Part shown: one piece after another, positions 5,796 to 49,201 of the stretch
How positions within the stretch are numbered: the stretch's first letter is position 1
Layout of the letters: each line of letters starts with the position of its first letter
Notes under the pieces: generated by a model
What the model was told of the DNA's origin: nothing
The model's input: the letters and a program-made list of their open reading frames with translations, nothing else
Database searches by the model: none
Program-made: the position numbers and the translations under genes
Assembly: GCA_031395565.1 (NCBI GenBank)
Contig: JANNUT010000137.1
Location: 11,252 to 75,251, forward strand
Reading direction: 5' to 3'
DNA from: Acidobacteriota bacterium
GTDB lineage: Bacteria; Acidobacteriota; Polarisedimenticolia; J045
DNA: 64,000 nucleotides

Positions 5796-5807
5796 TCCCT
5801 AGGGAAT
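5794..5807. promoter_or_regulatory. Perfect 14-bp palindrome in the 32-bp divergent CHAT/caspase intergenic region (candidate operator)
   Basis: ATTCCCTAGGGAAT at 5794-5807. It overlaps the annotated CHAT start codon (5793-5795) and sits 20 nt upstream of the caspase ATG (5828). Confidence 0.3.
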
Positions 5808-5827
5808 TTGGAGGGTCGATTTCACCA

Positions 5828-23419: not shown

Positions 23420-23509
23420 AGACTGCGTCGATGGAACGGAGCTTCCTTCTCCCCTCTTGCGATCTGCGATGTGTTGACACCAAACGCGCCGCAGCGCTAT
23501 AACGGGCTC

Positions 23510-25335: not shown

Positions 25336-25337
25336 CG

Positions 25338-32670: not shown

Positions 32671-32751
32671 CCGCTTCGCGGCCGTCTGGCGGTCTGGGAA
32701 TGACTCTCCTGTGTTCGGCGAGAGCGCCAGGACCTGGCGCCAGTAAAGGGG

Positions 32752-34482: not shown

Positions 34483-34775
34483 CGCACACCTCGCCCGCTG
34501 GAATTCGCCAATGGCTCGTAAGGAAAACGCCAGCGACGAAGAGAAAAAGTATCAGTCCTTGCCCTCAACGGGTCTTCTTCAATGTTGCGCACTGCCATTA
34601 GCCGCTCGCGCAATTGCTGGAGTTCGGGGTGCATTGGCGAAGACGGCAAAGGCGGATAAGTCGCCACCCACTCGAACTGGTATCAACACGAACCACAACC
34701 AAAGTTACGCCAAATCGTCCGTGGAATTTAGCCGAAGGTCGGCCGGCACATTCAGGGTTGAAACAGGAGGCCCGC

Positions 34776-35861
34776 ATGCAACGAAACAGCCAGCACCGGT
34801 CGCTCGCGAGCGGCGTGTTGATCGCAATCTGCGTTCTTCTCGGGGGGTTCATTTGGTCCCAAGAGCGCAGTGATCCCGCCGCGCCAAAGACACCACAAAC
34901 CCAGTTCGATCAGCCCGCGTTTCCCGCGGAGACCAAACCAGACCCCGAGGGGAACCGTCGACCTGGGCAACCAGGACACTATGAGCATCTTGAGTGGACA
35001 GGAGAGTACCCTTCGCTCGCCACGATCAACGACATGAAGGTCCTGCGCTCTTTTGCGCCGCCGAGTGGTTTTATCGGCAACATGGCCTATGACACCGTCA
35101 GTAATCGTCTCTGGCTGGTCTCGCTTGGCCCGCCCACGAATAGTACTGGCCAGAGCATGCTCTACGAACTCGACCCCACGACGGGTAGAGTTTTGCGGCA
35201 GGCGAGCCTGCCGTTGCGTGGTGATTTGGCTGAGCCGGTCTACCTGAATGGCCATCTTTACCAAGGTGCCTACCACGAGTCGAGACTGTACAAGATCAAT
35301 ACTGCAATCGGCGCGAATTTTGGCAAGATTGACGCGGTCATTAAGCTGCCGACGATTAACGATCTCAAACTTGTCAACGAGCGTCACCAATACCCGTTCA
35401 TCGAGTTTGGTGGCGTGACTGTCACTCCCGAAAACAAGCTGATGATTCATGCCGATGACGTCGGCGAGTACATAACTATTGATCCGGTGACAGGCAATCT
35501 GCTCAATCGAGTACGCACGATCAAGGCGATGGGAGGTATCGAAGGGACCAAGGACAAGCAGGGGCGATTTCTTGTCGTCGGCAATTCCGACCCGCGTGGC
35601 GGCTATTGTGCGCTCTCATACCCGCCGAGTGTTAGCCGCAGTCCGCGGCAGAAAGACATTAGCTGGGCCTTGACCGATGGACGCACGGGCGAGGTATTGG
35701 CATCCCGGCGCGAGCAGAATTCGAAAGCCTATGCGAGCACTCTCGCACTGCGGCGGCATGACGAGGTTCCAGGGACGCCGTATGGTCGGTTCACACTCTT
35801 CGCGCTGGGGGAAGACGGAATACTCGAAATCGAGTGGACTCCAGGGCGAGATGAGTCGTAG
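34776..35861 (+). CDS. Membrane-anchored/secreted beta-propeller, glutaminyl-cyclase-like (tentative), family Q copy 1
   Basis: ATG at 34776 with AGGAGG 7 nt upstream; TM segment GVLIAICVLLGGFIW. GNMAYDTVSNRLWLVSLGPPTNSTGQSMLYELDPTTGRVL... and C-terminal YGRFTLFALGEDGILEIEWTPG. Paralogue of 42106-43137. Confidence 0.55.
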   Translation: MQRNSQHRSLASGVLIAICVLLGGFIWSQERSDPAAPKTPQTQFDQPAFPAETKPDPEGNRRPGQPGHYEHLEWTGEYPSLATINDMKVLRSFAPPSGFIGNMAYDTVSNRLWLVSLGPPTNSTGQSMLYELDPTTGRVLRQASLPLRGDLAEPVYLNGHLYQGAYHESRLYKINTAIGANFGKIDAVIKLPTINDLKLVNERHQYPFIEFGGVTVTPENKLMIHADDVGEYITIDPVTGNLLNRVRTIKAMGGIEGTKDKQGRFLVVGNSDPRGGYCALSYPPSVSRSPRQKDISWALTDGRTGEVLASRREQNSKAYASTLALRRHDEVPGTPYGRFTLFALGEDGILEIEWTPGRDES

Positions 35862-37542
35862 GCCACATCGGACCTTTCTCAGTGTTGTGGAGGAATGGCT
35901 ACGAACCAACGCCTCACGTCGTGGCCTTGCGCTTGCGGCCACGCTTCTAATTGCCTCGTGGGCCGCATTCACAGAGAGTGGCTTGATTGGGCGTGAGATG
36001 GCGGTCACGCGTCACCTGCAGGATGGCGAAGAATACCGAATGCCGCTGTCGGCGCTGCTTGACCATGGGCAGCGATTATTCAGCGCCAAGTGGACCGTGC
36101 AAGACGGAGGTGGGCGGCCAGAAACCAATGGAATCGGCGAAGCTCTGACCGACCCCTCCCGCCCACTTCTATTCCCGCGTAACTTCAACCGAGTGTCTGG
36201 ACCAGATTCCAACGCTTGTGCGGCCTGTCACAACTCACCGCACAACTGGACTGGTGGCAATGGCGACTTCGTGGCGGTGACATTCGTCCAGGCACAACGC
36301 TTCGATGATGTCGACTTTGACGCCCAAAATGCCTTACCGTTGCGCGGGTCACGCGATGAACTTGGTGCAGCCGTGACACTGGCTTCGGCGGGTAACGCGC
36401 GGCGATCGATCGGAATGTTCGGTTCCGGATATGTCGAACTGCTCGCCCGACAAATGACGACCGAGCTCCAGCGGCAGCGTGACACACTCCAACCAGGTCA
36501 ATCGCGCGAGCTCATCGTTCGCGGTGTCTCATTCGGGCGCTTGAAACGGATTATCGACGGACGATGGGATGTGCACGAGGTCGAGGGGTTGCCGGCAGCG
36601 AGTACTGCCACCTTCGGATCCGAGGATCCGCCATCGCTGTTGATTCAGCCGTTCTCGCAAGCGGGCGCTTTTTCGTCGCTGCGACTATTCACCGACAATG
36701 CGCTCAATCACCACCATGGGATTCAGGCTTCGGAGCGGTTCGGGAAGGGTCGTGACCCGGATGGAGATGGGTTCGTCGATGAAGTTTCCAGAGCTGATGT
36801 CACCGCGCTCGTACTGTTCCAAGCGACTTTGCCTGTTCCTGGGCAGGTCATCCCTCATGATTCCGCGCACGAGAACGCGATCGCTCTCGGTGAGGCGCGT
36901 TTCAAGCTGGTCGGTTGCGTAGACTGTCACCGCCCATCCCTGGAACTCGATGAGGCCCGCGCTCTTTTCATCGAGCCCGGCCCTCACAACCCACGGCGCA
37001 CACTTCGTCGTGGAGAAGCCCCTCCTGTCGCCGTAGACCTAGCCGATCCTGCACTCCCTCTGCCACGGCTCCAGTCAAGTGGAGGTCGGCTGCGCGTACC
37101 GCTTTACTCTGATCTCAAGTTGCATGACATCACCAATGGCCCAGCCGACCCCAATCGTGAACCGATCGACATGCAGCAAGTCCAAGGAACAGCCGGTTTC
37201 TTCGGCGGAAATTCGCGATTTCTTACGCGGCCACTATGGGGGGTCGGGAATCAATCCCCGTATTTCCACCACGGGCGATTCACAACGCTTCGCGAGGCCA
37301 TCGAGGCGCACGCTGGTGAAGCGCAAACTACTATGAGCCGCTTTCGCGCGCTCCCGGCGAGTGAGCGGGACGCCGTGATCGAATTCCTCAAGTCACTCCA
37401 AGTTTTACCGGCAGGAGTGAAGACAACCGTAGTCGACGAGAACTATCAGCTTCGCAGCTGGGATCGTTCGGCGCTTGTATCGACAACTGACTGTTCGATC
37501 GCTCCAGCACACTGCGCAAAGCTGGAGAAGAGATCCGACTGA
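35851..37542 (+). CDS. DUF1111-type di-haem oxidoreductase (putative peroxidase)
   Basis: Two CxxCH sites: CAACH at 36217-36231 and CVDCH at 36916-36930. RPLWGVGNQSPYFHHGRFTTLREAIEAHAGEA matches the conserved C-terminal block of the DUF1111 family. I prefer the ATG at 35851, which overlaps the upstream stop by 11 nt and is followed by a signal/TM segment. Confidence 0.7.
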   Translation: MSRRPHRTFLSVVEEWLRTNASRRGLALAATLLIASWAAFTESGLIGREMAVTRHLQDGEEYRMPLSALLDHGQRLFSAKWTVQDGGGRPETNGIGEALTDPSRPLLFPRNFNRVSGPDSNACAACHNSPHNWTGGNGDFVAVTFVQAQRFDDVDFDAQNALPLRGSRDELGAAVTLASAGNARRSIGMFGSGYVELLARQMTTELQRQRDTLQPGQSRELIVRGVSFGRLKRIIDGRWDVHEVEGLPAASTATFGSEDPPSLLIQPFSQAGAFSSLRLFTDNALNHHHGIQASERFGKGRDPDGDGFVDEVSRADVTALVLFQATLPVPGQVIPHDSAHENAIALGEARFKLVGCVDCHRPSLELDEARALFIEPGPHNPRRTLRRGEAPPVAVDLADPALPLPRLQSSGGRLRVPLYSDLKLHDITNGPADPNREPIDMQQVQGTAGFFGGNSRFLTRPLWGVGNQSPYFHHGRFTTLREAIEAHAGEAQTTMSRFRALPASERDAVIEFLKSLQVLPAGVKTTVVDENYQLRSWDRSALVSTTDCSIAPAHCAKLEKRSD

Positions 37543-37660: not shown

Positions 37661-38533
37661 ATGAAGACCCACTCAAAGCTCACGGCACATTCTCTCGTAA
37701 CAATTGTGCTCGTGTTGTTCACGCTACCGTTCGACCAGGCAGGCACGCCGCTCGGGACACCGCCGAACTCTGCGGGGCTCACGATGGTTGCGGAGTTCAA
37801 GACACCCGGTCTGGAGTGTGAACTCTCTGGGATTTACCCACACCCGCTGCGCACCAATCAATATTACATCGCAACCGATCGCCACCCAGCCTGTCGTCAG
37901 GGCCAGCGGACTTTGCTTCAGGAATCGCAGCGTGGCAAGTTGTTGCTCGTCGACGGACTGAGCGGTCGCATCTTGAAGATGATCGCGTTGGTTGACGGCG
38001 ACTATGGCGACATCGCTGGCAACGATGAACGACTGTTCATCTCCAGCCTCGAGCCAGCCGAGATCCTCGAGGTCGATCTCGCGACGGATAAGCTTGTTCG
38101 TCGCATCCCAGTCGCGGGTCCCGCTGGGGGACTCGAGTTTGACCGGGAGCGTGGTGCGCTAATCGCACAGTTGTTCGCTCGAATGCCCCAGTTGGCCGTG
38201 ATCGACCCTAAGACAGGCGACACCACTGAATCTCTTTGGTCGGATGAGAGCGCTATGGGTCTGGCGAAGGTCGGGAAAGACCTGCTGTGCACATGGGTCT
38301 CGAGCTTCGATGAGTTCGCGAAGAGCGAGCTCCGATTGCTCGACAACCAGACCGGCAAAGTGATCGGGCGCACGCCGTTGAGTGGTGGAGTGCATACGGC
38401 GATGGCACCGGTCTCTCGCCCTGGGGTCTCTCCCGGCTTCATGGTGTTGGTGGCAACTGACCGGGGCACCGGCGCAAGTGTCGTGCGCTCCTACGCTTAC
38501 GATGGTTCACAGGTGCAGTGGAAGCGGGATTGA
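37661..38533 (+). CDS. Secreted beta-propeller-like protein (glutaminyl-cyclase/YncE-like, tentative)
   Basis: 290-aa ORF, GGAGG RBS 8 nt upstream, signal peptide. Repeated strand-turn units (LLLVDGLSGRIL, LFISSLEPAEILEVDLATDKLV, GGLEFDRERGALIAQL, LAVIDPKTGD). Confidence 0.5.
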   Translation: MKTHSKLTAHSLVTIVLVLFTLPFDQAGTPLGTPPNSAGLTMVAEFKTPGLECELSGIYPHPLRTNQYYIATDRHPACRQGQRTLLQESQRGKLLLVDGLSGRILKMIALVDGDYGDIAGNDERLFISSLEPAEILEVDLATDKLVRRIPVAGPAGGLEFDRERGALIAQLFARMPQLAVIDPKTGDTTESLWSDESAMGLAKVGKDLLCTWVSSFDEFAKSELRLLDNQTGKVIGRTPLSGGVHTAMAPVSRPGVSPGFMVLVATDRGTGASVVRSYAYDGSQVQWKRD

Positions 38534-38560: not shown

Positions 38561-41500
38561 ATGGCAGGGGCGATTAGCGCGTGGAGTCGAAATCGCAAAG
38601 CACGAGGTACGGCCGACACTCGCGGTTTCTCGCGTCTGGCCGTAGCGGGGTTCCTCGTGCTCGTTGCGATCAGCGCGGCTTCTCGTCCTGGTGGAGCGCC
38701 GACGGTGGCGATTGTGCAAGTGCCAGGATCGGCGGGAGGGGCACTCACCTCCGCCGGCGAACGAATCATCCGGCAGGCTGTGCAAGATGACGTTCGGATC
38801 GTGATCGTCGCTGTTACCTCGGTTGCAACTTCACCGGCAGTGCCCGCTTCGGCGGGGAGCGTTTCAAGTCAGAGTTGGGGATCGCTGGCGCGTGAGTTGG
38901 GGGTCTGGATCGTCGCGCCCCCTGAGACTACGAGCCAGCGTTCAGCCGTCAGCGTGGTTGCTATTAACGGGTATGGCGACCGGATCGAGTCTCAGCAGAA
39001 ACGCCACTCCAGCGGAACGGTTTCGAGTGGTGCGCTACGTGGCGATGTCTGGTCCCCACTGGCAGTCTTCGAGGAGGCAGGAACGCGCATCGGATTGACT
39101 TGGGGGTCAGATCTGAGCGTTGAGGTGCCCGCACTCGCCGCGCGGGGCGCGCAAGTGATACTCGTGTCAGGATCGTGGCCGGCTGCCGAGTGGCCGACAG
39201 CGACGATCGAGTTGCGCGAGTTGAGTCGTCGTCATGCCGTTCAGCTCGTTGTCGCACAGCCAGCGGCCGCTGGGTCTCCCAACGACCCATCCGGCCGATA
39301 TGATGTCGATGGTCTCTATCACAACGGAGTTGTCGCAGATGCTGCGCGTTGGGTAGTCATCGCAACTGCTGCCCCGCGGCGGTCGGGTCCGTCGGTCCTG
39401 GGCCTCCCGGCGATCCCGGTGCCCGCCAATCAAGCAGCCTCGGCGGAACTCGTCGAACTCGGACGCAAGCTGTTCGTCGACAAGTCGTTGTCGAGTGACG
39501 GAAAGACATCGTGCGCTAGCTGCCACGATCCCGAACAAGGCTTCACGTCGCATGTGCCGCTCGCCACTGGCGTCAACGGTTACCGAACTAAGCGCAATGT
39601 GCCCACTTTGCTGAATGTCGCGTTCCGATCAGCACTGTTTTGGGACGGGTATGCCAGTTCGTTAGAGAACCAATCGAAGTACCCGCTCAGCCATCCGCAA
39701 GAGATGGATGCGCCGTACCTTGATCAGGCTGCAGCGAAGTTGACTGCCAGCGAGACCTACCGTGAGTCGTTTCGCGCAGCCTTCGGAGGTGCATCTCCAT
39801 CAGCTGAACGCGCATCGATCGCCCTGGCCGCCTTCCAGCGCACACTTATCGCTGCCGAAAGCCGTGCCGATCGCTACCTCTATGCTGGTGATAGTGGTGC
39901 GTTGACCGATTCGGAGCGCCGCGGCTTAGACTTGTTCCGCGGAAAAGCAAATTGTACGACATGTCACACCGTCGGTCATAAGTACGCACTGTTCAGTGAT
40001 CAGGCCTTCCATGACACAGGAGTTGGTTTCGAGCGAGAGACCGGTTCACCGAGAGATGGCGGCCTCGGTTGGCTAACCGACTCTCGACGGCTAGGCCAGT
40101 TTCTCACCCCAACGTTGCGAAACGTGTCCGACACCGCACCGTATATGCATGATGGTTCGCTCGCGACGCTCGAGGACGTCGTCAACTTCTACGCAGCGGG
40201 CGGAATCCCGCATTCTGGTCTCGACCCCGGCATTACCGCGCTCGACCTCGACCAACAGGAAAGGATCGACCTAGTCACCTTCTTGCATTCGCTGAGCAGC
40301 GAGCAGCGTTTCGATACGGAGGCCCGTCCGGTCCTTAATTCCTGGCCCCGCGAAAAGCAGATCGGTGAGCGCACCGCGATCGCTGCGGTGAGGGTTACAC
40401 CGAGGCAACTGGACGTATTAGGCAATCGGGAGCGCAATGCCCGAGCCATCGGAGAGGCGGTTCAGCGAGGTGCTGAAGTAGTCGTTCTACCTGAGTACGC
40501 CGAGACCGGCAGACTGGACGGGAGTTCGGTCGAAATGGACCGACTGCTGGAGATAGCCGATGAACAGCAGAGCCGCGGTGCGTCGACCTATTCCCAATTG
40601 GCACGTCGGTACAGCGTTTGGATCTCCATCCCGCTGCTCGAGCGTGCGCCGGGTCAAGTCGACAATGTGCGGCTCGCCATATCTTTGTTCGACCCAACTG
40701 GACGCCGTCAGCTCTCGCAACCCAAACTGACGACGCGTCGTGAGCGTGGTGATGGACCCCTCACTGTCGGTGGGCCTCGCGAACTGCGAGCCGTCAACAC
40801 TCCGCTGGGTTGGCTCGCTCCGCTAGCTGGCGACGACCTGCAGGTGGGAGTCAGCCGTCTTGCAGAGTTGGGAGCCCAGGTGGTGCTCGTGTCGGCGTCC
40901 TGGGAAAAGTCTGACGCTGTCGACTGGGCGCAGCTTGCAATCGAACTCTCGCGGCGTCATCGGCTCTCCCTCGCAATCAGCGACCTTCCGACCGACGAGT
41001 CACGAACAGCGCTTTTCGCCACCACGGCCAGTGAACACGGTGAAGTTTCGGGGGTCGAAGCAGGAACTCGTCAGCCTATCGTCACGATTCGCATCGCGCG
41101 GACTGATGCGGCGCGGGTAGTCAAGCAACCACTGGGATTACCGAAGATCCCGGCACCGATGGCCTCTCCCGTGACACAACAGGCCGTCGATCTAGGGCGG
41201 ACACTCTTCAACGATCGCGGGTTATCCCGAGCCAGTTCTGTCTCCTGCGCGGATTGCCACATCCCCGAGAAAGGCTTTACAGACGGCCTTAGGGTGCCTC
41301 AAGGTTTTGCCGGACGGTTAGGGGCGCGCAACACGCCGACGCTGCTCAACGCAGTGTACCGTCCGTTCGAGTTTTGGGATGGGCACGAATCGTCGCTCGA
41401 GGAGCAAGTGCTGCACGCGGTTCAGCACTTTGCAGAGATGGATAGTTCTGCTGAACGAGTCCTGGAATATGTACGAGGCGTACCGACATATCGGCTAGCG

Positions 41501-42109
41501 TTCGAACAACTCAACGGCGACGACGAGATCGAATTCTCCGATATCGCGCGTGTGATCGCAGCCTTCGAGCGCACGCTCGTCTCCGGCAACAGTCCATTCG
41601 ATCGCTGGTACTACGGGCGCGATGAATCGTCGCTGAGCCGCGAGGCTCAGCGGGGCTACCAACTGTTCATTGGCGAGGCGCGCTGCTCGACGTGTCACCA
41701 CATTGGGACGCAAGACGCACTCTTCACCGACAACCGTTTCCACAACACCGGCATTGGCTACCACATGCGATTCGACTATCTGGGCTACAACGGCAACGGA
41801 CTCGGGGCGAACACGACGGAACGTCGAGTCTTCAGTGGGGAGTATCTGACTCCGACATTGAGAAACGTGGCGCTTACCGGGCCGTACATGCACGACGGAA
41901 GCCTGGCCACTCTCGAGGATGTAGTCGAGTTCTATGTGCGTGGTGGAACGCCAAACCCCACACTCGATTCGTCAATCAAGCCACTGTCCCGGCTTCTAGC
42001 GCGAGATAAACGCGATCTGGTGGCGTTCTTGCAGTCCCTAACCAGCAGCGACCCACTTCCGACCGGCGGTCGACCGTCCGGCCGCATGGCTCGTACGAGC
42101 CCACAATGA
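38561..42109 (+). CDS. 1182-aa membrane-anchored protein with internally duplicated architecture: (nitrilase/CN-hydrolase-like, apparently inactive) + (di-haem cytochrome c peroxidase/MauG-like), twice
   Basis: Four CxxCH sites: CASCH 39512-39526, CTTCH 39953-39967, CADCH 41246-41260, CSTCH 41684-41698. Two CCP blocks (RNVPTLLNVAFRSALFWDGYASSLENQ / RNTPTLLNAVYRPFEFWDGHESSLEEQ; PTLRNV..TAPYMHDGSLATLEDVV twice). Each is preceded by a CN-hydrolase-like region. The second keeps AEVVVLPEYAETG but has LAPLAGDDL where the catalytic Cys is expected. The first has IGLTWGSDL and no PE motif. Confidence 0.8.
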   Translation: MAGAISAWSRNRKARGTADTRGFSRLAVAGFLVLVAISAASRPGGAPTVAIVQVPGSAGGALTSAGERIIRQAVQDDVRIVIVAVTSVATSPAVPASAGSVSSQSWGSLARELGVWIVAPPETTSQRSAVSVVAINGYGDRIESQQKRHSSGTVSSGALRGDVWSPLAVFEEAGTRIGLTWGSDLSVEVPALAARGAQVILVSGSWPAAEWPTATIELRELSRRHAVQLVVAQPAAAGSPNDPSGRYDVDGLYHNGVVADAARWVVIATAAPRRSGPSVLGLPAIPVPANQAASAELVELGRKLFVDKSLSSDGKTSCASCHDPEQGFTSHVPLATGVNGYRTKRNVPTLLNVAFRSALFWDGYASSLENQSKYPLSHPQEMDAPYLDQAAAKLTASETYRESFRAAFGGASPSAERASIALAAFQRTLIAAESRADRYLYAGDSGALTDSERRGLDLFRGKANCTTCHTVGHKYALFSDQAFHDTGVGFERETGSPRDGGLGWLTDSRRLGQFLTPTLRNVSDTAPYMHDGSLATLEDVVNFYAAGGIPHSGLDPGITALDLDQQERIDLVTFLHSLSSEQRFDTEARPVLNSWPREKQIGERTAIAAVRVTPRQLDVLGNRERNARAIGEAVQRGAEVVVLPEYAETGRLDGSSVEMDRLLEIADEQQSRGASTYSQLARRYSVWISIPLLERAPGQVDNVRLAISLFDPTGRRQLSQPKLTTRRERGDGPLTVGGPRELRAVNTPLGWLAPLAGDDLQVGVSRLAELGAQVVLVSASWEKSDAVDWAQLAIELSRRHRLSLAISDLPTDESRTALFATTASEHGEVSGVEAGTRQPIVTIRIARTDAARVVKQPLGLPKIPAPMASPVTQQAVDLGRTLFNDRGLSRASSVSCADCHIPEKGFTDGLRVPQGFAGRLGARNTPTLLNAVYRPFEFWDGHESSLEEQVLHAVQHFAEMDSSAERVLEYVRGVPTYRLAFEQLNGDDEIEFSDIARVIAAFERTLVSGNSPFDRWYYGRDESSLSREAQRGYQLFIGEARCSTCHHIGTQDALFTDNRFHNTGIGYHMRFDYLGYNGNGLGANTTERRVFSGEYLTPTLRNVALTGPYMHDGSLATLEDVVEFYVRGGTPNPTLDSSIKPLSRLLARDKRDLVAFLQSLTSSDPLPTGGRPSGRMARTSPQ

Positions 42110-43137
42110 CTCTCCACACTGTCGTCGCTGCCATCGATCGTCGTGCGTTGTTGGCCACGCTGCTCGTCATGCTATTGCCAATCGCGTTACCACCGGTGCG
42201 CGCCGAAGGGGAATTCCAACTCAAGCGTGTGGTCACGCTCCCTGAAGGCTTCCGCGGCAACGTCGCGTTTGATCGCGAGAGTGCCCGCCTGTTCCTCATC
42301 TCACATGGCCCTCCTGCCAACAGCAAGGGTCCGAGTACGCTGTACGAGCTCGACCGTCAGACAGGCCGTGCCATACGCAGACGAGTTTTGCCCTTCTTGG
42401 GCGAGTTACCAGGGACAGTTGTCATCGGTGGAGTACTGTTCGTTGGCGTACCATTTGAATCGAAGGTCTACAAAGTCGAGCTTACTGAAACAGCGGAATT
42501 CGGAGCGATTCTCGGCACGCTGCGAATTCCAGATTTGACCGAGCTCGGTCCGACCGACAAAGACGATGTCTTTCGGTTCCCGTTTCTCGGTTTCCAACAG
42601 CTGGCGGCAGCCGAGGGCGGCGATCTGCTCGTCTATTCCGATGCACTAGGAAGCCTGCTGTCCTTGAGCATCAAGGATGGATCACTGGTCCGGCGGATCG
42701 ATGCGGCCAAAGGCCTGATGGGCCTAGCCCACGCGTCGGAGAACGGGTCGGCACCGCTGCTTATCGCTAACAGTAATCCGAGCATCGTTCAGTACGAGCG
42801 CGAGGCCCGCCGGTTTCAGTACCGCGCCGACCATGGCTCTGCGGCGCAGATCCGGTACGGTGCGAAGGAGGTGCTGTGGATGCTGCTTGACGCGTCGTCA
42901 GGGATTGTATTGGCGAGTCATGACGATCCGGACTCTCGCATCGATGCAGGCACCATCGCATGGACCGGACATGCCACACGGGAAGGCTCTCGCTACGGCA
43001 AGTTGAGTTTCTATGCAGTTGGACAAGAGGGATTGTTCGAGGTCGAGTGGACACCAGGAGGATCGACGGCGGGGGCGCCCGCAGCGGGCGAACCGTCGCC
43101 AGCCGCTGTCACGGATGAGTTGGCCCACTGTCACTGA
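42106..43137 (+). CDS. Secreted beta-propeller, glutaminyl-cyclase-like (tentative), family Q copy 2
   Basis: ATGA start/stop overlap with the upstream gene. Signal peptide. GNVAFDRESARLFLISHGPPANSKGPSTLYELDRQTGRAI and YGKLSFYAVGQEGLFEVEWTPG align with 34776-35861. Confidence 0.55.
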   Translation: MTLHTVVAAIDRRALLATLLVMLLPIALPPVRAEGEFQLKRVVTLPEGFRGNVAFDRESARLFLISHGPPANSKGPSTLYELDRQTGRAIRRRVLPFLGELPGTVVIGGVLFVGVPFESKVYKVELTETAEFGAILGTLRIPDLTELGPTDKDDVFRFPFLGFQQLAAAEGGDLLVYSDALGSLLSLSIKDGSLVRRIDAAKGLMGLAHASENGSAPLLIANSNPSIVQYEREARRFQYRADHGSAAQIRYGAKEVLWMLLDASSGIVLASHDDPDSRIDAGTIAWTGHATREGSRYGKLSFYAVGQEGLFEVEWTPGGSTAGAPAAGEPSPAAVTDELAHCH

Positions 43138-43195: not shown

Positions 43196-44389
43196 ATGCA
43201 TTCAGCGATTGCAATCCGAAGCAACGAGTCCGTGCCCATGATCGCAAACGGTGTCGCCTTTGGCGACCCGACCACGAGGTTCAGCGAAAGTATCCACCAT
43301 GTGTCCACTAGCCTAGAACAACGTCTAACCGAGGAGTTGATCCGCGACGGGCGCACCTCATTTGACGCCGTCACGCGGGAGTTCGCGCTCTATCAGTTAC
43401 TGGCTCGTGAAGGCTCGCGCTGCATCGACACGCTCGAGGCCGCTGCCCACGAGGATCCGAACACCGACGTGCGCATCAACGTGCTCTGGGCGCTGGAGTG
43501 GCTTGACAGCGCACGGTGCCGCGAGATCGGGCTGTCCTTGCTCGACGATCCGGATCATCGCGTGCGCGAGTGGGCTCGCGTCTTCGCCTGGGAGATGGGC
43601 TGGAGCCCTAAGGACTTTCGCTACAAACGCGAGTTCAAGCACCTGCAAGGACGCACGTTCGACCAGACGATCTATCTACACATCATGTGCAACCTCTATA
43701 TCCGAATGTCTGAGGACAACAAGACGTGGGGTCACGTGCTGCTGAGCCCTCAGACCCTAGCGCGTGTCTACGGTCAGGCGCTCGCCTGCCCGATTTTTAA
43801 GACCCGCGAGAAAGAGATTGTGATCTCCAAGACCCTCTCCGGTTTGCACGCCGACGACTCCGATCATTATGAAGCGTTCCTGTTCCGTGGCTTTACCGAG
43901 CGCACAGGGACCGATAGCGGCAATTTCTACTTCGAGACGCAGACGGAGCGGCCATTCTTCCTTTCCGGTCGCGCCAACGATGTCTCTGAGGGTTACGTAG
44001 AAAAAATGATGGTGCCGTTCGCACGTGAAGGGCAGTGGTTCTTGAATGATCATGTGACGATCGAGGATGTTCACCCCATCGAATATGTACGTGGCCTGTT
44101 CCAGGGTTGGGCATATGTCAACCTGGATAGGATCCAGCGAACAGGCGGGGAGTTCTTGTTCCCCGGCAACTCTGTGCTCTCGACCCTGCATCATCCGATC
44201 GTCGGCGAGAAGACCAACGCGTTCCTCATTGGTCGTTTCAAAGGCAAGGTGCTCGATTGGGATGGGGACGGGGTACTGGATTTGAACTACCTACCGTCGT
44301 ATGCGACTGCGAAAGGCGAGGTGGATTCCGACCTTGACGGGGTTCCCGATCAGCCTGGGCTAACAGTTAGTCTCAACCCGGCACGCTGA
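43196..44389 (+). CDS. Hypothetical protein with HEAT-like repeats (N-terminal) and Asp-rich Ca-binding-like tail
   Basis: 397-aa ORF with HEDPNTDVRINVLWALEWLDSARCREIGLSLLDDPDHRVREWA (HEAT/PBS-lyase-like) and a C-terminal DWDGDGVLDLN...DSDLDGVPD. No signal peptide seen and no family recognised. Confidence 0.45.
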   Translation: MHSAIAIRSNESVPMIANGVAFGDPTTRFSESIHHVSTSLEQRLTEELIRDGRTSFDAVTREFALYQLLAREGSRCIDTLEAAAHEDPNTDVRINVLWALEWLDSARCREIGLSLLDDPDHRVREWARVFAWEMGWSPKDFRYKREFKHLQGRTFDQTIYLHIMCNLYIRMSEDNKTWGHVLLSPQTLARVYGQALACPIFKTREKEIVISKTLSGLHADDSDHYEAFLFRGFTERTGTDSGNFYFETQTERPFFLSGRANDVSEGYVEKMMVPFAREGQWFLNDHVTIEDVHPIEYVRGLFQGWAYVNLDRIQRTGGEFLFPGNSVLSTLHHPIVGEKTNAFLIGRFKGKVLDWDGDGVLDLNYLPSYATAKGEVDSDLDGVPDQPGLTVSLNPAR

Positions 44390-44413
44390 AGTTTATCGTT
44401 GTGTATTGCGGGC

Positions 44414-44442
44414 GGTGCCGAGGGCGGATGCGCCTCGGCACC
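44414..44442 (+). terminator. GC-rich perfect 10-bp hairpin downstream of 43196-44389 (possible intrinsic terminator or attenuator; no U-tract)
   Basis: GGTGCCGAGG (44414-44423), gcggatgcg loop, CCTCGGCACC (44433-44442). Located in the 82-bp gap before the SRPBCC gene. Confidence 0.4.
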
Positions 44443-44471
44443 TAGCCTAGGCTTCGACGAGGGGAAGAAGA

Positions 44472-45227
44472 ATGTTCCATGTCGTCCGGCAGCGGGTTGT
44501 TCGCTGTAGCACTGAACACGCGTGGGCATGTCTTACCGAACCCGCGAAGCTGACGAGTTGGTTCGGCGACACCGACTCGATCTCTGTTGGAAGTACCACC
44601 CGCTTCGACTTTGGTGATGGTGACTACTTTATCGCCGAGGTTCTTGAACTAAACCGTCCGACGGACATTCACATGTCTTGGCGCTTTATGGGCATCGGCC
44701 AGACCTTTACAGTTCGTGTCCTGCTCTCGCCCCATTCAGAGGGCACTGAAGTCACGGTGATCGACCACGGCTCGCTCACAGTCGAGGAGGTCGACAGCCT
44801 GCGCGAAGGCTGGGACGACTTTCTCATGCGCCTGTCCCAATTCGTCGACAACGGCGGCTGGGTTCGATATGAATGGAGCCAGACTATTGGTATCAGTGTG
44901 ATCCTCGGCTCTCGAGCCCGTCGGCCGTTTCCGACCGAGATGGTGGACAGTGCTTGGCTCACGAAACACTTTCCAGATGCCGAGTTTGAGATCGAACGCC
45001 CTGATGAAAACATACTCACGCTACGTTTCGGTGAGCGCTCCTGGGCCGGAAAGCAAACGGAAGCTCTTCTTGAGTCGCGCGCACTCGCGCCTGATCGCCT
45101 CTACCTCGGCGTCGTGCACAAGGGCTGGGAAAACCTACCTGCCGATTCGTGTCTTCGCGAGAGAAGGCGGTACGCCGGACTTTGGCGTGAGGTCATGGCG
45201 GCATTCGAAAATGCATACGGGGAGTAA
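44472..45227 (+). CDS. SRPBCC/AHSA1 (START-like) domain protein, two domains
   Basis: 251-aa ORF. VVRCSTEHAWACLTEPAKLTSWFGD is a typical AHSA1/SRPBCC N-terminus, and a second similar half starts about WLTKHFPDAEFEIER. Confidence 0.6.
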   Translation: MFHVVRQRVVRCSTEHAWACLTEPAKLTSWFGDTDSISVGSTTRFDFGDGDYFIAEVLELNRPTDIHMSWRFMGIGQTFTVRVLLSPHSEGTEVTVIDHGSLTVEEVDSLREGWDDFLMRLSQFVDNGGWVRYEWSQTIGISVILGSRARRPFPTEMVDSAWLTKHFPDAEFEIERPDENILTLRFGERSWAGKQTEALLESRALAPDRLYLGVVHKGWENLPADSCLRERRRYAGLWREVMAAFENAYGE

Positions 45228-45259
45228 AATCTGCGCCGCGAGTCGGGTTTAAGACGACA

Positions 45260-46468
45260 ATGGGCTCGTTGCAACTCTTGTTTCATCACCGAGCGATCCA
45301 GTATTTCTGGGGGGCGGGATTTATCTCGTCGCTCGGATCCCAGATCAGTCGAATCGGCCTGCTACTATTTCTATTCAATGAACTACGTTCGGTACCGCAC
45401 CTGGTCCTGCTCGTCGCGGTCGAGACAGTTCCGGGCCTTCTGTTCATTAACGTTGCTGGGACGCTGGTCGACCGTTTTGACAAGCGAAGGATCATGATCA
45501 TAGCGGACCTGGTACGCGCCCTGCTGATGATCGTGGTTCTAATACGGCCCGACCCGCTGATTATTTACGCGATGGCCGGGCTGCATTCAGTTGCCGCGGC
45601 GTTCTTCCTGCCGGCGCGAAGCGCCGTGCTTCCTAGCCTAGTTGGGCGTCGCCAACTCGCGGCCGCCAACGGCCTGGAACAAGGAACCTCCAACCTGATA
45701 ATGATTATTGGGCCGATCGTCGGCGTTCAGTTATTCCTCGCTGGAGGCATCCGCACCTTGCTCGTGATCGACTCCGTGTCCTACGTACTCGGCGCCGCGC
45801 TCATGGGATTCGTATCTCTGAGACCCGGGCGCGCTATGTCAAATCAAAGCATCTTTGCCACGCGTCAGCCGTTGCTTCACAGCGGCTGGAGAGTGCTGTG
45901 CCAGCAGCCGGTCGCGCTGCAAATCACCTTACTCTACCTCGTCACTCAGGTATGCGTCGGTGTGTGGATCCCGCTAGCGCCTTTCTTCGTCCGCGATTTC
46001 CTACAGGGGTCCGATAGAGTGCTAGGAATCCAGATGGGAGTCTTCGGCCTAGGGGGACTAATCGGCGCGCTGCTTGCGCCAACCTTGTTGGAGCGGATCG
46101 GTCCAGGCGCCATTCTAGTAGTCGGGTTATTGGGTGAAGCAACGATCATGACGGTGTACTCGTTGGTGCCGCAGGCTGGAGTTTCGATCGCGATTATTCT
46201 GCTTTGGGGGGCGATCGTCTCGTTGATCGCCGTTCCGTTCTACTCGATGATGCAGAAATTGATCGACGAAGGCCATCTAGGACGTGTTTTTTCGTTGGTT
46301 CGGCAAGGAGAGAGCGCGGCACTTCTGGTGTCGATGGGCGTCGCGATGACCCTGAACCAACTCATGAGCGTCTCACAGGTCTTCCTGGTCGCTGGGCTAT
46401 TGTACCTATCTGTCGTGTTGGTGAGCACGTCAACCCATCGCGGTCGGCAGCTGTGGGCGTACCGATGA
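45260..46468 (+). CDS. MFS transporter (EntS/MFS_3-like)
   Basis: 402-aa ORF with about 12 hydrophobic helices. FWGAGFISSLGSQISRIGL and LVDRFDKRRIMIIADL are typical of the enterobactin-exporter-like MFS subgroup. Confidence 0.7.
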   Translation: MGSLQLLFHHRAIQYFWGAGFISSLGSQISRIGLLLFLFNELRSVPHLVLLVAVETVPGLLFINVAGTLVDRFDKRRIMIIADLVRALLMIVVLIRPDPLIIYAMAGLHSVAAAFFLPARSAVLPSLVGRRQLAAANGLEQGTSNLIMIIGPIVGVQLFLAGGIRTLLVIDSVSYVLGAALMGFVSLRPGRAMSNQSIFATRQPLLHSGWRVLCQQPVALQITLLYLVTQVCVGVWIPLAPFFVRDFLQGSDRVLGIQMGVFGLGGLIGALLAPTLLERIGPGAILVVGLLGEATIMTVYSLVPQAGVSIAIILLWGAIVSLIAVPFYSMMQKLIDEGHLGRVFSLVRQGESAALLVSMGVAMTLNQLMSVSQVFLVAGLLYLSVVLVSTSTHRGRQLWAYR

Positions 46469-48282: not shown

Positions 48283-49201
48283 CACATGTAAGACGCCGCC
48301 CGGCGGGCGGCACCGACAGCCGACGCAGCCAACGACACGCCGAGAACTCATGATGAGGGTGCTCTCGAGTTGGTCGATAGTGATCGGTGTCACCGGCGTA
48401 CTTCTGTCGCTCTGGATACTAGGCACGTCGTGGCACCCAGTTGCGTGGCGTTGGGAACAGGACGTTATGCCTGGGCCTTGGGACAACGTTTCTGGACTCT
48501 CTTTTGATGGTGAGCGGCTATGGATCACGATCGAGGGGGAACACCGAATACGGTACGTCGATCCGGCCACAGGCACGACGCTCCGTACGATCCCATTCCC
48601 GGCAGAGGCGACGGGCGGAAGTGCCTGGGACGGGAAGTGGTTGTGGCAGCTCGCTTGGATGGAGCGGCGGATCTACCAAATTGACCCGGCAGACGGGAAG
48701 ATTCTAGCTACGTTCCCGTCTCCGGGTGAAGGAATGTGCAGCGGCACGGCGTTCGATGGTCGATATCTGTGGGTCGCCAACTGGGTTGAGTCGCGCGTGT
48801 ACTGCATTGACCAGCAGGATGGCGGCAGAGTGATCCGTTACCTGCGCGGTGACAAGGAGACCGCGGGCATTGCCTGGGACGGCACGTCACTCTGGGTGGG
48901 CGTCCTAGTCGGTACCGAGAGCCACGACGAGGCGCCTCCGTTCACAGGGTTCGTCCAGGAACTAGATATCGTTAACGGCGAGGCTGCACGAGTGGTGCCG
49001 GTCCACGGCGTCGGACCGGGCTGTACCGACTGGACGCCGGGCTCGCGTCGATCGAGTCGGATGTGGTGGTATGACCACTTCAACAAGCGGATCGTGGTGA
49101 TCCGATTCCGTACAGAAGGTGTGGGAACGCGACGCGCGGGGGCGCTCTTGCTCTTCGCGACAAGCGGATTGGTGATTCTCGCGAGGCGGCGATCGAACTG
49201 A
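48269..49201 (+). CDS. Membrane-anchored beta-propeller-like protein (glutaminyl-cyclase-like repeats, tentative)
   Basis: Repeats GLSFDGERLWITIEG..IRYVDPATG, GSAWDGKWLWQLAW..RIYQIDPADG, GTAFDGRYLWVANW..RVYCIDQQDG, GIAWDGTSLWVG. TM segment WSIVIGVTGVLLSLWILG and a C-terminal hydrophobic tail. Alternative start at 48350. Confidence 0.55.
   Translation: MSTADTCKTPPGGRHRQPTQPTTRRELMMRVLSSWSIVIGVTGVLLSLWILGTSWHPVAWRWEQDVMPGPWDNVSGLSFDGERLWITIEGEHRIRYVDPATGTTLRTIPFPAEATGGSAWDGKWLWQLAWMERRIYQIDPADGKILATFPSPGEGMCSGTAFDGRYLWVANWVESRVYCIDQQDGGRVIRYLRGDKETAGIAWDGTSLWVGVLVGTESHDEAPPFTGFVQELDIVNGEAARVVPVHGVGPGCTDWTPGSRRSSRMWWYDHFNKRIVVIRFRTEGVGTRRAGALLLFATSGLVILARRRSN

What the first reader, a model, noticed from the sequence alone, without database searches (positions are those of the whole stretch)
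38561..42109. Internally duplicated (dead nitrilase-like + di-haem CCP/MauG) x2 polypeptide with four haem c sites
Seen: a single ORF with two CCP units. Each has two CxxCH sites (39512, 39953; 41246, 41684) and duplicated blocks RN.PTLLN....FWDG..SSLE.Q and PTLRNV...PYMHDGSLATLEDVV.FY. Each CCP unit is preceded by a ~220-aa region resembling carbon-nitrogen hydrolases. Unit 2 keeps VVVLPEYAETG (Glu), but the position where I expect the catalytic Cys reads LAPLAGDDL. Unit 1 reads IGLTWGSDL and lacks the PE motif. Established: CN-hydrolases need a Glu-Lys-Cys triad. Inference: the nitrilase-like modules are probably non-catalytic binding or scaffold domains recruited to a tandem peroxidase. I have not seen this architecture described.
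Basis: partly seen in the sequence, partly recalled or inferred. Interest (0 to 1): 0.7.

Follow-up and report, generated by a model that had tools for sequence, protein, structure and literature searches.

The report
Dead-nitrilase plus MauG-type dihaem tandem enzyme
One exported 1182-residue protein is built from two copies of a [quoted passage not shown] unit, belongs to a small undescribed metagenomic family that always sits between small beta-propeller genes, and probably represents a new kind of periplasmic haem oxidase complex whose substrate is unknown.

Summary
ORF 38561-42109 (+) is intact (1182 aa). It has four CxxCH sites at the stated coordinates, and its two halves are 39% identical (E 2e-90). 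Each half is a CN-hydrolase-fold module followed by a di-haem CCP/MauG module.

The nitrilase-like modules are truly dead. The protein's only 8 Cys are the haem Cys, and profile alignment to yeast Nit3 puts an invariant Gly on the nucleophile.

The haem modules are not ordinary peroxidases. Both have Tyr where canonical enzymes have the Met haem ligand, plus the inter-haem Trp, which makes them MauG-type. They score below the MbnH and MauG model cut-offs.

The architecture is not unique. At least 16 double-unit and 17 single-unit cluster representatives exist, all metagenomic, and none has Cys at the elbow. Units split into ancient U1 and U2 clades. U2 always keeps Glu and Lys, while U1 often loses them, as it does here.

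Small related beta-propeller genes (p290 upstream, p343 downstream with an ATGA overlap) are conserved partners, and one relative fuses p290 to the unit.

Best reading: a fused heterodimer of pseudo-nitrilase/MauG-type units working with propeller partners. Function and substrate remain inferred.

The parts
38561..42109 (+). Whole gene: (pseudo-nitrilase + MauG-type di-haem) x2, 1182 aa
38561..38686 (+). N-terminal export signal or anchor. A basic stretch is followed by the hydrophobic segment LAVAGFLVLVAISAA (aa 26-40).
   Evidence: hydropathy; helix 3-40. Export is required for c-type haem attachment (established knowledge).
38681..39394 (+). N1: degenerate CN-hydrolase-fold module (aa 41-278). 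The Glu is replaced by V85 (nt 38813-38815). Lys K147 is kept (38999-39001). The nucleophile position is G182 (39104-39106).
39398..40315 (+). C1: di-haem unit 1 (aa 280-585). Features are CASCH at 39512-39526, CTTCH at 39953-39967, Trp W361 at 39641-39643 and Tyr Y544 at 40190-40192.
40355..41131 (+). N2: CN-hydrolase-fold module (aa 599-857). It keeps Glu E645 (40493-40495) and Lys K722 (40724-40726). The nucleophile position is G757 (40829-40831).
41132..42046 (+). C2: di-haem unit 2 (aa 858-1162). Features are CADCH at 41246-41260, CSTCH at 41684-41698, Trp W939 at 41375-41377 and Tyr Y1125 at 41933-41935. The U2-specific insertion RFDYLGYNGNGL lies at 41768-41803.
37661..38533 (+). p290: secreted small beta-propeller-like protein. 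It lies immediately upstream in all double-unit loci examined and is fused to a Nit-CCP unit in relative P0053.
42106..43137 (+). p343: glutaminyl-cyclase-like beta-propeller. Its start overlaps the stop of the main gene (ATGA). It is a conserved downstream partner and a distant homologue of p290.
34614..35861 (+). Upstream paralogue of p343 (32% identity, E 4e-49). The true start is probably an internal Met near nt 34776.
35677..37542 (+). DHOR-like di-haem protein (CAACH, CVDCH). It is conserved upstream in the close relatives. The true start is probably internal, and the nearest in-frame Met (aa 59) is at nt 35851.
43196..49201 (+). Conserved downstream block: a HEAT-repeat protein, an AHSA1/SRPBCC protein, an MFS_3 transporter, a PD40/Tricorn propeller, and a 310-aa Glu_cyclase_2-like propeller.

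Best explanation
The gene encodes an exported protein that is in effect a covalently fused heterodimer of two old paralogous units, U1 and U2. Each unit is a nitrilase-fold module that cannot hydrolyse (Gly replaces the nucleophile Cys), joined through a rigidly conserved LGLPxxPxP junction to a MauG-type two-haem module.

The haem modules most likely react with H2O2 at the N-terminal five-coordinate haem. They would store the oxidising equivalents across both haems as a bis-Fe(IV)-type state, as His-Tyr ligated relatives do, and use them to oxidise a specific bound substrate instead of simply destroying peroxide.

The pseudo-nitrilase modules are non-catalytic. They probably hold the two units together in the way nitrilase-fold proteins always dimerise, and they probably dock the partners. 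The U2 pocket still keeps its Glu and Lys and may bind a ligand or a partner side chain. The U1 pocket is decaying and is mainly structural.

The enzyme works with the small glutaminyl-cyclase-like beta-propeller proteins encoded on both sides (p290, p343 and paralogues). These are either its protein substrates, as in the MauG/preMADH and MbnH/MbnP pairs, or its substrate-binding subunits.

Shown: the domain identities, the loss of Cys, the Tyr/Trp signature, the U1/U2 clades, and the conserved partner genes, gene fusion and gene overlap. Inferred: the bis-Fe(IV) chemistry, the pseudo-dimer, docking, and the identity of the substrate.
For: Nitrilase fold: the family profile hits PDB nitrilase-superfamily chains at E 5e-16, with full-domain alignments to 1f89, 2w1v and 5kha. 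Sixteen of 18 modules hit Pfam CN_hydrolase. The top 50 Foldseek hits of the model are all nitrilase-superfamily structures, with target TM 0.51-0.75.

Dead: there is no Cys outside the haem motifs. Gly aligns to the Cys of Nit3. Across haem-bearing relatives the elbow is Gly in 47 domains, Ala in 3 and Ser in 1, and never Cys, while ordinary nitrilases in the same list have Cys.

MauG-type: Y544 and Y1125 align with the Met ligand of 3o5c, 1iqc and 2c1u, and with chain position 294 of MauG 3l4m. His-Tyr against His-Met is the published discriminator, and Y294 is the MauG ligand (PMC11892367, PMC6405878). The Trp, both CxxCH pairs, the Gln...Glu residues and the Tyr are invariant in both units of 10 relatives, and there is no conserved distal His. 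The best PDB hit for unit 1 is the 6e1c di-haem enzyme.

Fused heterodimer: U1 and U2 form separate clades with standalone genes in each. Locus L087 has U1-type and U2-type units as separate genes.

Asymmetry: U2-type modules keep Glu and Lys in 19 of 19 cases, whereas U1-type modules keep Glu in 21 of 30. The window's N1 is only 24% identical to other N1 modules, which are 47% identical among themselves.

Partners: p290 and p343 flank the gene in all double-unit loci with enough sequence. The ATGA overlap is present here, and matching end/start coordinates are seen in other loci. P0053 is a p290-Nit-CCP fusion. p290 lies directly upstream of a single-unit gene in L089. The p343 model is a propeller closest to glutaminyl cyclases.

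Ligand binding is plausible: Cys-to-Ala and Cys-to-Ser nitrilase-fold variants have been crystallised with bound ligands (entry titles 6ypa, 4hgd and 5h8l).
Against: There is no experimental or structural evidence for any interaction. The full-length model has pTM 0.42 and poor haem domains, so it gives no support for or against an N1:N2 pseudo-dimer. The Tyr ligation is inferred from alignment only. The retained Glu/Lys in U2 could be purely structural. Neither p290 nor p343 shows an obvious MbnP-like WxW motif, and neither matches MbnP models. The neighbourhood also repeatedly contains small-molecule genes (PKS, P450, SnoaL, AHSA1, methyltransferase, MFS exporter), which fits a small-molecule substrate equally well.
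Confidence: 0.5

Rival explanations
1. Small-molecule tailoring or degrading enzyme. The U2 pseudo-nitrilase pocket binds an amide- or carboxylate-bearing metabolite, for example the product of the neighbouring polyketide genes exported by the MFS_3 transporter. It presents this metabolite to the haem unit for periplasmic oxidation. The propellers are accessory binding proteins and not substrates.
For: Biosynthesis-type genes recur near family members in unrelated lineages. These are a PKS, 4HBT thioesterase, AraC, methyltransferase and glyoxalase, P450, SnoaL, PP-binding and radical SAM, and AHSA1/SRPBCC plus MFS_3. U2 strictly keeps Glu and Lys. Cys-less nitrilase variants bind ligands (entry titles). 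Other CCP_MauG relatives act on small molecules or polymers, for example the oleate-diol synthase subfamily (PMC4496055), and there are RoxA-like Pfam hits.
Against: Characterised His-Tyr enzymes with a known substrate (MauG, MbnH) act on proteins (PMC11951088). The tightest and most universal linkage is to the propeller genes, through overlap and fusion, and not to the PKS. No ligand is known.
Confidence: 0.22
2. Neo-functionalised catalytic module. The nitrilase-like domains are still enzymes that use a different mechanism, for example water activated by Glu/Lys or a metal held by the conserved Gly-Asp-Asp and GDG acidic residues. They would supply or process a substrate for the haem unit.
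For: Lys, Gly(elbow) and Asp(+2) are invariant across all 18 modules aligned, and the SGDDL motif is strongly conserved. Glu and Lys are kept in every U2-type module.
Against: All characterised members of the superfamily use a Cys thioester intermediate (established knowledge). The Ser before the Gly is not conserved, being W181 and A756 here. Glu and Lys are lost repeatedly in U1-type modules. Asp at Cys+2 is also common in ordinary nitrilases (ICYD and ICFD), so it need not signal new chemistry.
Confidence: 0.1
3. Self-modification. The haem unit oxidises a residue inside its own nitrilase-like module, creating a protein-derived cofactor in the former active site.
For: MauG and MbnH make protein-derived cofactors (PMC11951088). 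The module is covalently tethered next to the haems through a conserved junction.
Against: No Trp, Tyr or Cys is invariant in the N-modules. The invariant positions are A, G, K, G, D, L, G, A, G. The nearly conserved Trp of SASW is Leu in several U1 modules.
Confidence: 0.06
4. Ordinary tandem H2O2-detoxifying cytochrome c peroxidase with decorative N-terminal domains.
For: Strong CCP_MauG Pfam hits and high similarity to canonical peroxidases (3o5c at 4e-42 for unit 2). The acid-base Glu and the Gln are conserved. Sources name relatives 'cytochrome c peroxidase'.
Against: Tyr, not Met, sits at the E-haem ligand position in both units and in all relatives. There is no distal His loop. The gene lies in a conserved multi-gene neighbourhood with dedicated partners.
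Confidence: 0.08
5. Artefact: a mis-assembled or read-through fusion of two adjacent genes, or a pseudogene.
For: Single-unit genes of both types exist.
Against: There are sixteen independent double-unit cluster representatives of 965-1393 aa from different sources, with intact frames. All haem residues are conserved. The U1-U2 linker is continuous.
Confidence: 0.01

Closest known systems
MbnH / MbnP (di-haem MauG-like enzyme that converts a Trp of its partner MbnP to kynurenine)
   Same: It is the best PDB match of unit 1 (6e1c, E 3.5e-45). It has Tyr at the E-haem ligand position, the same PYMHDGS...Y motif, and a dedicated partner gene next to it.
   Different: Each unit scores 224 or 218 bits against a 362.85 cut-off for the MbnH-family model. 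No MbnP-like neighbour is present. MbnH has no nitrilase-fold module and is not duplicated. The partners here are beta-propellers.
MauG / pre-methylamine dehydrogenase
   Same: It has His-Tyr haem ligation, and both Tyr here align to chain position 294. It also has the inter-haem Trp and acts on a protein partner that includes a propeller subunit (PMC6405878, PMC11951088).
   Different: The units score 204 and 217 bits against a 443.85 cut-off. There are no mau genes nearby. MauG is a single 2-haem protein without extra domains.
BthA (Burkholderia di-haem enzyme with a stable bis-Fe(IV) state and no known substrate)
   Same: It is a MauG-type enzyme of unknown physiological substrate that was found by mining CCP_MauG diversity (PMC6405878).
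   Different: BthA lacks the inter-haem Trp and the Ca site, whereas this family keeps the Trp. PDB similarity is weaker (6nx0, E 6e-17). BthA has no nitrilase module.
Canonical bacterial cytochrome c peroxidases (Ne 1iqc, So 3o5c, Pa 1eb7)
   Same: They share the fold, the two CxxCH motifs, the Trp and the distal Gln/Glu, with E 1e-32 to 1e-42.
   Different: The Met ligand is replaced by Tyr. There is no distal His loop. N-terminal modules are added, and partner genes are conserved.
Nitrilase / CN-hydrolase superfamily (Nit2, Nit3, amidases, NadE glutaminase domain)
   Same: They share the alpha-beta-beta-alpha fold and the Glu and Lys positions. NadE and NitFhit show that the fold is used as a fused module in other enzymes.
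   Different: The nucleophile Cys is replaced by Gly in every family member. No literature on natural Cys-less ('pseudo') nitrilase domains was found.
Hydrazine synthase and quinohaemoprotein amine dehydrogenase (periplasmic enzymes that combine a CCP-like di-haem subunit with beta-propeller subunits)
   Same: They are a precedent for a di-haem CCP-fold subunit working in a complex with beta-propellers. There are weak hits to the hydrazine synthase gamma model (PMC12607021).
   Different: The scores are far below the cut-off (55 and 44 bits against 625). The propellers are unrelated. There is no anammox context.

Membership tests
Nitrilase / CN-hydrolase superfamily (PF00795) | Significant profile and fold similarity to the alpha-beta-beta-alpha CN-hydrolase domain | tested here: met
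   N2 scores 43.7 bits against a Pfam cut-off of 23.2. The family profile hits PDB nitrilases at E 5e-16. Sixteen of 18 modules hit Pfam. The Foldseek top 50 are all nitrilase-superfamily structures. N1 of this protein is recognised only through homology to N2 and to other N1 modules.
Nitrilase / CN-hydrolase superfamily (PF00795) | Catalytic Glu (LPE motif) | tested here: inconclusive
   N2 has E645, so the feature is met there. N1 has V85, so it is not met there.
Nitrilase / CN-hydrolase superfamily (PF00795) | Catalytic Lys | tested here: met
   K147 and K722 are invariant in the 10-member alignment and align with the Lys of 1f89.
Nitrilase / CN-hydrolase superfamily (PF00795) | Nucleophile Cys at the elbow | tested here: not met
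   G182 and G757 occupy the position. There is no Cys outside the haem motifs. Gly aligns to the Cys of Nit3. None of 51 haem-linked modules has Cys at this position.
MauG-type bacterial di-haem enzymes | Two CxxCH haem c sites per unit | tested here: met
   Sites lie at aa 318 and 465, and at aa 896 and 1042. They are invariant in relatives.
MauG-type bacterial di-haem enzymes | Tyr (not Met) as the sixth ligand of the second (E) haem | tested here: met
   This was tested by alignment only. Y544 and Y1125 align with the Met of 3o5c, 1iqc and 2c1u and with chain position 294 of 3l4m MauG. The criterion comes from PMC11892367 and PMC6405878. Actual ligation is not testable here.
MauG-type bacterial di-haem enzymes | Inter-haem Trp | tested here: met
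   W361 and W939 lie in the FWDG motif, aligned with the qfWdg motif of canonical enzymes, and are invariant.
MauG-type bacterial di-haem enzymes | Formation of a bis-Fe(IV) state with H2O2 | not testable with these tools
   This needs near-IR, EPR or Moessbauer spectroscopy on purified protein.
MauG proper (TIGR03791) | Score at or above the equivalog cut-off, and a mau / methylamine dehydrogenase gene context | tested here: not met
   The units score 203.6 and 216.6 bits against 443.85. No MADH genes are in the window.
MbnH family (TIGR04039) | Score at or above the cut-off per di-haem unit, and an adjacent MbnP partner | tested here: not met
   The units score 224 and 218 bits against 362.85. 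The whole-protein score of 433.6 is only the sum of the two units. The neighbours have no MbnP hit.
Canonical bacterial cytochrome c peroxidase | His-Met ligated high-potential haem | tested here: not met
   Tyr occupies the Met position in both units and in all 10 relatives.
Hydrazine synthase gamma subunit (NF052341) | Score at or above the cut-off of 625 | tested here: not met
   The units score 55.5 and 44 bits.

The most novel reading that the evidence does not exclude
This is a third, undescribed MauG/MbnH-like protein-maturation system. A pseudo-nitrilase adaptor docks glutaminyl-cyclase-like beta-propeller proteins (p290/p343) onto a MauG-type di-haem oxidase. The oxidase then installs a new oxidative modification or protein-derived cofactor on the propeller. 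The fused U1-U2 form would service two different propeller paralogues at once. This would also make the N-modules the first natural pseudoenzyme branch of the nitrilase superfamily with a defined role.
Probability: 0.2. Interest if true: 0.8.

Novelty: new variant of a known kind. Interest (0 to 1): 0.62.

Why it matters
MauG-type di-haem enzymes are prized because they generate long-lived bis-Fe(IV) oxidants and build protein-derived cofactors. Only MauG and MbnH have assigned substrates among the three characterised (MauG, MbnH and BthA).

This family offers a new and easily recognised branch with built-in clues to its partners: gene fusion, a stop/start overlap and conserved synteny with small propellers. 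It also appears to be the first natural, family-wide Cys-less branch of the nitrilase superfamily. That makes it a clean case for asking what a dead nitrilase fold is recruited for.

The tandem U1-U2 form, in which one pocket is conserved and the other is decaying, is a textbook-style example of asymmetry evolving after a dimer is fused. All members come from uncultured bacteria, so function would have to be established by heterologous expression.

Tried and rejected
1. Genome-collection scan. The full-length alignment picked the generic patterns PYMHDGS and DxxFHNTG and was flooded by ordinary single CCP/MbnH-type genes. None of the 80 loci carries a Nit-like module. The organism therefore stays unidentified, and absence from genome collections cannot be claimed.

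2. Taxonomy through cluster look-ups.

3. Full-length structure prediction. Mean pLDDT was 64 and pTM 0.42, with poor haem domains from a shallow 10-sequence alignment and no haem. It was unusable for domain packing. Only the N2 fold was usable.

4. Single-sequence searches. The N2 search of the PDB was marginal (E 0.013), and a family profile was needed. N1 alone has no Pfam or NCBIfam hit.

5. p343 single-sequence homologue search. It returned only 2 proteins because of the word prefilter, so an alignment query was needed. p343 and p290 have no significant Pfam or PDB sequence match.

7. Literature searches for CN_hydrolase + CCP_MauG, for nitrilase pseudoenzymes and for nitrilase + MauG fusions found nothing relevant.

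8. MbnH membership was rejected. The apparent pass (433.6 against 362.85) is the sum of two units.

9. A Ser nucleophile at Cys-1 was considered and rejected. It is W181 and A756 in this protein and Ala in several relatives.

Full report
OBSERVATION

It runs 38561..42109 on the + strand and encodes 1182 aa from an ATG start. A GAGG Shine-Dalgarno-like motif lies about 7 nt upstream of the start.

It has four CxxCH motifs, at aa 318, 465, 896 and 1042 (nt 39512, 39953, 41246, 41684). The eight cysteines of these motifs are the only cysteines in the whole protein.

The two halves (1-590 and 591-1182) align over 516 residues at 39% identity, E 2e-90. The alignment runs through most of the N-terminal modules as well as the haem modules.

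Pfam finds CCP_MauG (4.6e-100, four stretches) and CN_hydrolase (7.4e-14, two stretches). The ORF length matches its homologues (1161-1200 aa), so it is neither a pseudogene nor a read-through.

THE N-TERMINAL MODULES ARE NITRILASE-FOLD DOMAINS THAT CANNOT BE NITRILASES

On its own, N2 (aa ~599-857) passes the Pfam CN_hydrolase cut-off (43.7 bits against 23.2), but only over the first half of the profile. N1 gives no hit. Single-sequence comparison of N2 with the PDB is marginal (E 0.013).

A profile of 18 N-modules from nine family members (alignment A2) is decisive.
- It hits PDB nitrilase-superfamily chains at E 5e-16.
- It gives full-domain alignments to yeast Nit3 (1f89), mouse Nit2 (2w1v) and the glutaminase domain of NAD synthetase (5kha).
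- Sixteen of the 18 modules hit Pfam CN_hydrolase individually, best 2e-18. The two that do not are presumably the N1 modules of this protein (no Pfam hit when scanned alone) and of its closest relative.

The AlphaFold model of the full protein is poor overall (mean pLDDT 64, pTM 0.42), but N2 is well folded (pLDDT about 80-92). Foldseek against the PDB returns only nitrilase-superfamily structures in the top 50: cyanide dihydratase, aliphatic amidase, Nit2, Nit3, NitFhit, N-carbamoylputrescine amidohydrolase and formamidase. E-values run from 2e-13 to 1e-11, with target TM 0.51-0.75.

The residue-level alignment to Nit3 matches the LPE Glu and the RK Lys. It places the family's invariant Gly on the nucleophile Cys: 'kfGvgiCyDmrf' against 'riGvlsGdDLq'. 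In this protein those positions are as follows.
- Unit 1: V85 (Glu lost), K147, G182.
- Unit 2: E645, K722, G757.

The Ser that often precedes the Gly in relatives is W181 and A756 here, so it is not a substitute nucleophile. The 'dead nitrilase' reading stands.

THE HAEM MODULES ARE MauG-TYPE, NOT ORDINARY PEROXIDASES

Each haem module matches solved bacterial di-haem peroxidases and MauG-like enzymes strongly.
- Unit 1: 6e1c 'Di-heme enzyme' at 3.5e-45, which I recall (own knowledge) to be MbnH, and Nitrosomonas CCP at 1e-41.
- Unit 2: Shewanella CcpA at 4e-42.

The published discriminator between canonical peroxidases and MauG-type enzymes is the sixth ligand of the second (E) haem. It is Met in canonical enzymes and Tyr in MauG, MbnH and BthA. 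The Tyr form goes with low haem potential and formation of a bis-Fe(IV) oxidant (PMC11892367; PMC6405878, which also names Y294 as the MauG ligand).

In the printed alignments Y544 and Y1125 sit on the Met of 3o5c ('ntM'), 1iqc ('etM') and 2c1u ('kiM'). The alignment end-coordinates place both at chain position 294 of MauG 3l4m.

Across ten family members, both units keep both CxxCH motifs, the inter-haem Trp (FWDG), the RN.P Asn, the distal Gln...Glu pair and the Tyr. The loop that carries the distal His ligand in activatable peroxidases has no conserved His.

Membership of the named families fails.
- MbnH-family model: each unit alone scores 224 or 218 bits against a cut-off of 362.85.
- MauG model: 204 and 217 bits against 443.85.
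- Hydrazine synthase gamma model: 55 and 44 bits against 625.

The apparent pass for MbnH in the whole-protein scan (433.6) is only the sum of two units. The units are therefore a separate branch of the MauG-type group.

IT IS A FAMILY, WITH SINGLE AND DOUBLE FORMS

The word-indexed search found ten proteins with the same four-module architecture (38-66% identity to the window protein), all from metagenomes.

An exhaustive HMM search with the N-module profile against 1.84 billion cluster representatives found 59 hits below 1e-30. When the best 150 were analysed with the first ten, the results were:
- 16 double-unit representatives (965-1393 aa);
- 17 single-unit Nit-CCP proteins (about 530-870 aa, two CxxCH);
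- special forms: P0053 (p290 homologue + Nit + CCP), P0060 (membrane N-terminus + Nit + CCP) and P0065 (Nit + CCP + a C-terminal extension).

In the 51 haem-linked N-modules the nucleophile position is Gly (47), Ala (3) or Ser (1), and never Cys. The ordinary nitrilases further down the same list have Cys. Sources name these proteins at most 'cytochrome c peroxidase', and each cluster has 1-3 members.

No paper linking a CN-hydrolase domain to CCP/MauG, or describing natural nitrilase pseudoenzymes, was found.

THE DUPLICATION IS OLD AND THE TWO UNITS ARE NOT EQUIVALENT

A neighbour-joining tree of all units separates a U1 clade from a U2 clade. Standalone single-unit genes fall in both. U2-type units carry a specific insertion, RFxYLGYxGxGL.

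Locus L087 encodes a U1-type gene (583 aa), a U2-type gene (596 aa) and a third type (564 aa) as separate genes in one cluster. The 1182-aa protein is therefore best seen as a fusion of two long-diverged paralogues. It is not a recent internal repeat.

The modules evolve unequally. The haem modules are about 57% identical on average across ten relatives and the N-modules about 37-38%. The window's N1 is only 24% identical to the other N1 modules, which are 47% identical among themselves. It also sits on a long branch.

Glu and Lys are kept in all 19 U2-type N-modules, whereas Glu is kept in only 21 of 30 U1-type modules. These counts are not phylogenetically independent.

This asymmetry is what one expects if only one pocket per pair still does something and the other module is structural.

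CONSERVED PARTNERS

In every double-unit locus with enough sequence, the gene is preceded by a secreted protein of about 260-310 aa (p290; 46-75% identity to the window's copy). It is followed by one to three paralogous proteins of about 330-363 aa (p343 type).

The p343 start overlaps the stop of the haem gene (ATGA). Matching end/start coordinates are seen in L001 and L002, and there is a 1-nt overlap in L087. A second p343 paralogue lies upstream in the window (34614-35861; 32% identity, E 4e-49).

P0053 is a natural fusion of a full-length p290 homologue (44% identity) to a U1-type unit. In L089 a p290 homologue lies directly upstream of a single-unit gene.

What the partners are:
- p290 members hit the BamB-like PQQ_2 propeller profile (6 of 7, best 4.4e-7).
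- p343 has no significant sequence match.
- The p343 model (pLDDT 80, pTM 0.77) is an all-beta propeller. Its best TM matches are bacterial and plant glutaminyl cyclases: 3mbr and 3nol at TMt 0.71, 2iwa at 0.67.
- p290 and p343 are distant homologues (hhalign 93.5%, E 2e-7).
- A 310-aa Glu_cyclase_2-like protein closes the block.

Further conserved neighbours are a DHOR-type di-haem protein, a HEAT-repeat protein, an AHSA1/SRPBCC protein, an MFS_3 transporter and a PD40/Tricorn propeller. Biosynthesis-type genes recur nearby: PKS, 4HBT thioesterase, AraC, methyltransferase, glyoxalase, P450 and SnoaL.

HOW IT MOST LIKELY WORKS

Shown:
- an exported protein, with a basic then hydrophobic N-terminus, as required for c-type haem attachment;
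- two MauG-type di-haem units, each rigidly joined through an invariant LGLPxxPxP junction to a Cys-less nitrilase fold;
- ancient U1/U2 paralogy;
- tight genetic coupling to small propellers.

Inferred:
- The haem units use H2O2 to form a bis-Fe(IV)-type oxidant and oxidise a specific bound substrate.
- The two nitrilase folds pair with each other as nitrilase-superfamily proteins do (established knowledge of the family). This would make the polypeptide a covalent heterodimer.
- The N-modules dock the propellers. p290 is fused directly N-terminal to the N-module in P0053.
- The U2 pocket, with its Glu and Lys intact, still binds something. Engineered Cys-to-Ala and Cys-to-Ser nitrilase-fold enzymes retain ligands in crystals (entry titles of 6ypa, 4hgd and 5h8l).

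Whether the propellers are substrates (as preMADH is for MauG and MbnP is for MbnH; PMC11951088) or substrate-binding subunits cannot be decided here. It is also undecided whether the true substrate is a small molecule from the neighbouring biosynthetic genes. I put about 0.5 on the scaffold/docking + MauG-type + propeller-partner model as a whole, and about 0.2 on the small-molecule variant. The remaining rivals are minor.

COMPARISON AND NOVELTY

The parts are known folds. The combination appears in no paper I could find. It comprises a natural pseudo-nitrilase fused to a MauG-type di-haem unit, in single and fused-double forms, with dedicated glutaminyl-cyclase-like propeller partners. It fails the membership tests for MauG, MbnH, canonical peroxidases and hydrazine synthase gamma.

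I rate it a new variant of a known kind, with interest about 0.6. A haem-enzyme specialist would be surprised by the architecture, and the genetic clues make the substrate question directly testable. Against that, the chemistry is most likely of the known MauG type and no function is demonstrated.

LIMITS

- The source organism is unknown.
- No inter-domain geometry could be obtained.
- Tyr ligation, dimerisation, docking and substrate identity are all inferences.
- The family survey rests on 50%-identity cluster representatives and on a handful of loci.

Noticed in passing
proteins P0063-P0076, P0080-P0099 and others: Many tandem CN-hydrolase proteins of about 540-640 aa have a first domain with the normal Cys elbow (ICMD or ICFD). 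Their second domain has Gly at the elbow (GLLIGxDL). This looks like a separate, apparently widespread active + dead nitrilase pair in one chain. It shows that Gly-elbow pseudo-nitrilase domains also occur outside the haem family.
   Followed up: no
window 35677-37542 (+): A second di-haem protein (CAACH, CVDCH) matches only the C-terminal end of the DHOR 'putative peroxidase' profile (E 8e-14). It is conserved just upstream in close relatives. The cluster therefore encodes six haem c sites.
   Followed up: partly
window 31564-34482 (-): A UnbV_ASPIC domain fused to an AhpC/redoxin domain (368 aa) sits next to an FG-GAP repeat protein (576 aa). The same pair is conserved next to the cluster in L001 and L002.
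   Followed up: no
window 48269-49201 (+): A 310-aa protein with a weak Glu_cyclase_2 hit (2.9e-5) and a C-terminal hydrophobic tail ends the conserved block. It is weakly similar to the p343 paralogue (E 1.7e-4). The cluster thus holds at least four related small propellers.
   Followed up: partly
window 3102-7768: A divergently transcribed pair: a CHAT-domain protein (897 aa, - strand) and a caspase-like Peptidase_C14 protein with DUF4384 (646 aa, + strand).
   Followed up: no
window 20348-31580 (-): A secondary-metabolism-like block holds a 2080-aa ORF at the position where close relative L002 has a 2078-aa PKS. It also holds a 1023-aa fusion of a beta-eliminating-lyase (PLP) domain with an AMP-binding enzyme. 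Further on (58706-62053) lies a carboxylic-acid-reductase-like AMP-binding + NAD_binding_4 protein.
   Followed up: partly
L087 10640-12175: A PAP2 / vanadium-chloroperoxidase-like (VCPO_2nd) gene lies between two Nit-CCP + p343 gene pairs in the locus that carries three single-unit genes.
   Followed up: no
proteins P0012-P0038: Other CCP_MauG fusions surfaced in the search. Proteins of about 650 aa are fused to SCO1/SenC (sources name some 'photosynthetic protein synthase I'). Proteins of about 748 aa are fused to a NosD-like right-handed beta-helix. Domain recruitment by this haem fold therefore seems common.
   Followed up: no
P0048 (298 aa): This fragment seems to run from the C-terminal end of a p290-like protein straight into an N1 module. 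It is either a second p290-Nit fusion or a frameshifted contig.
   Followed up: no
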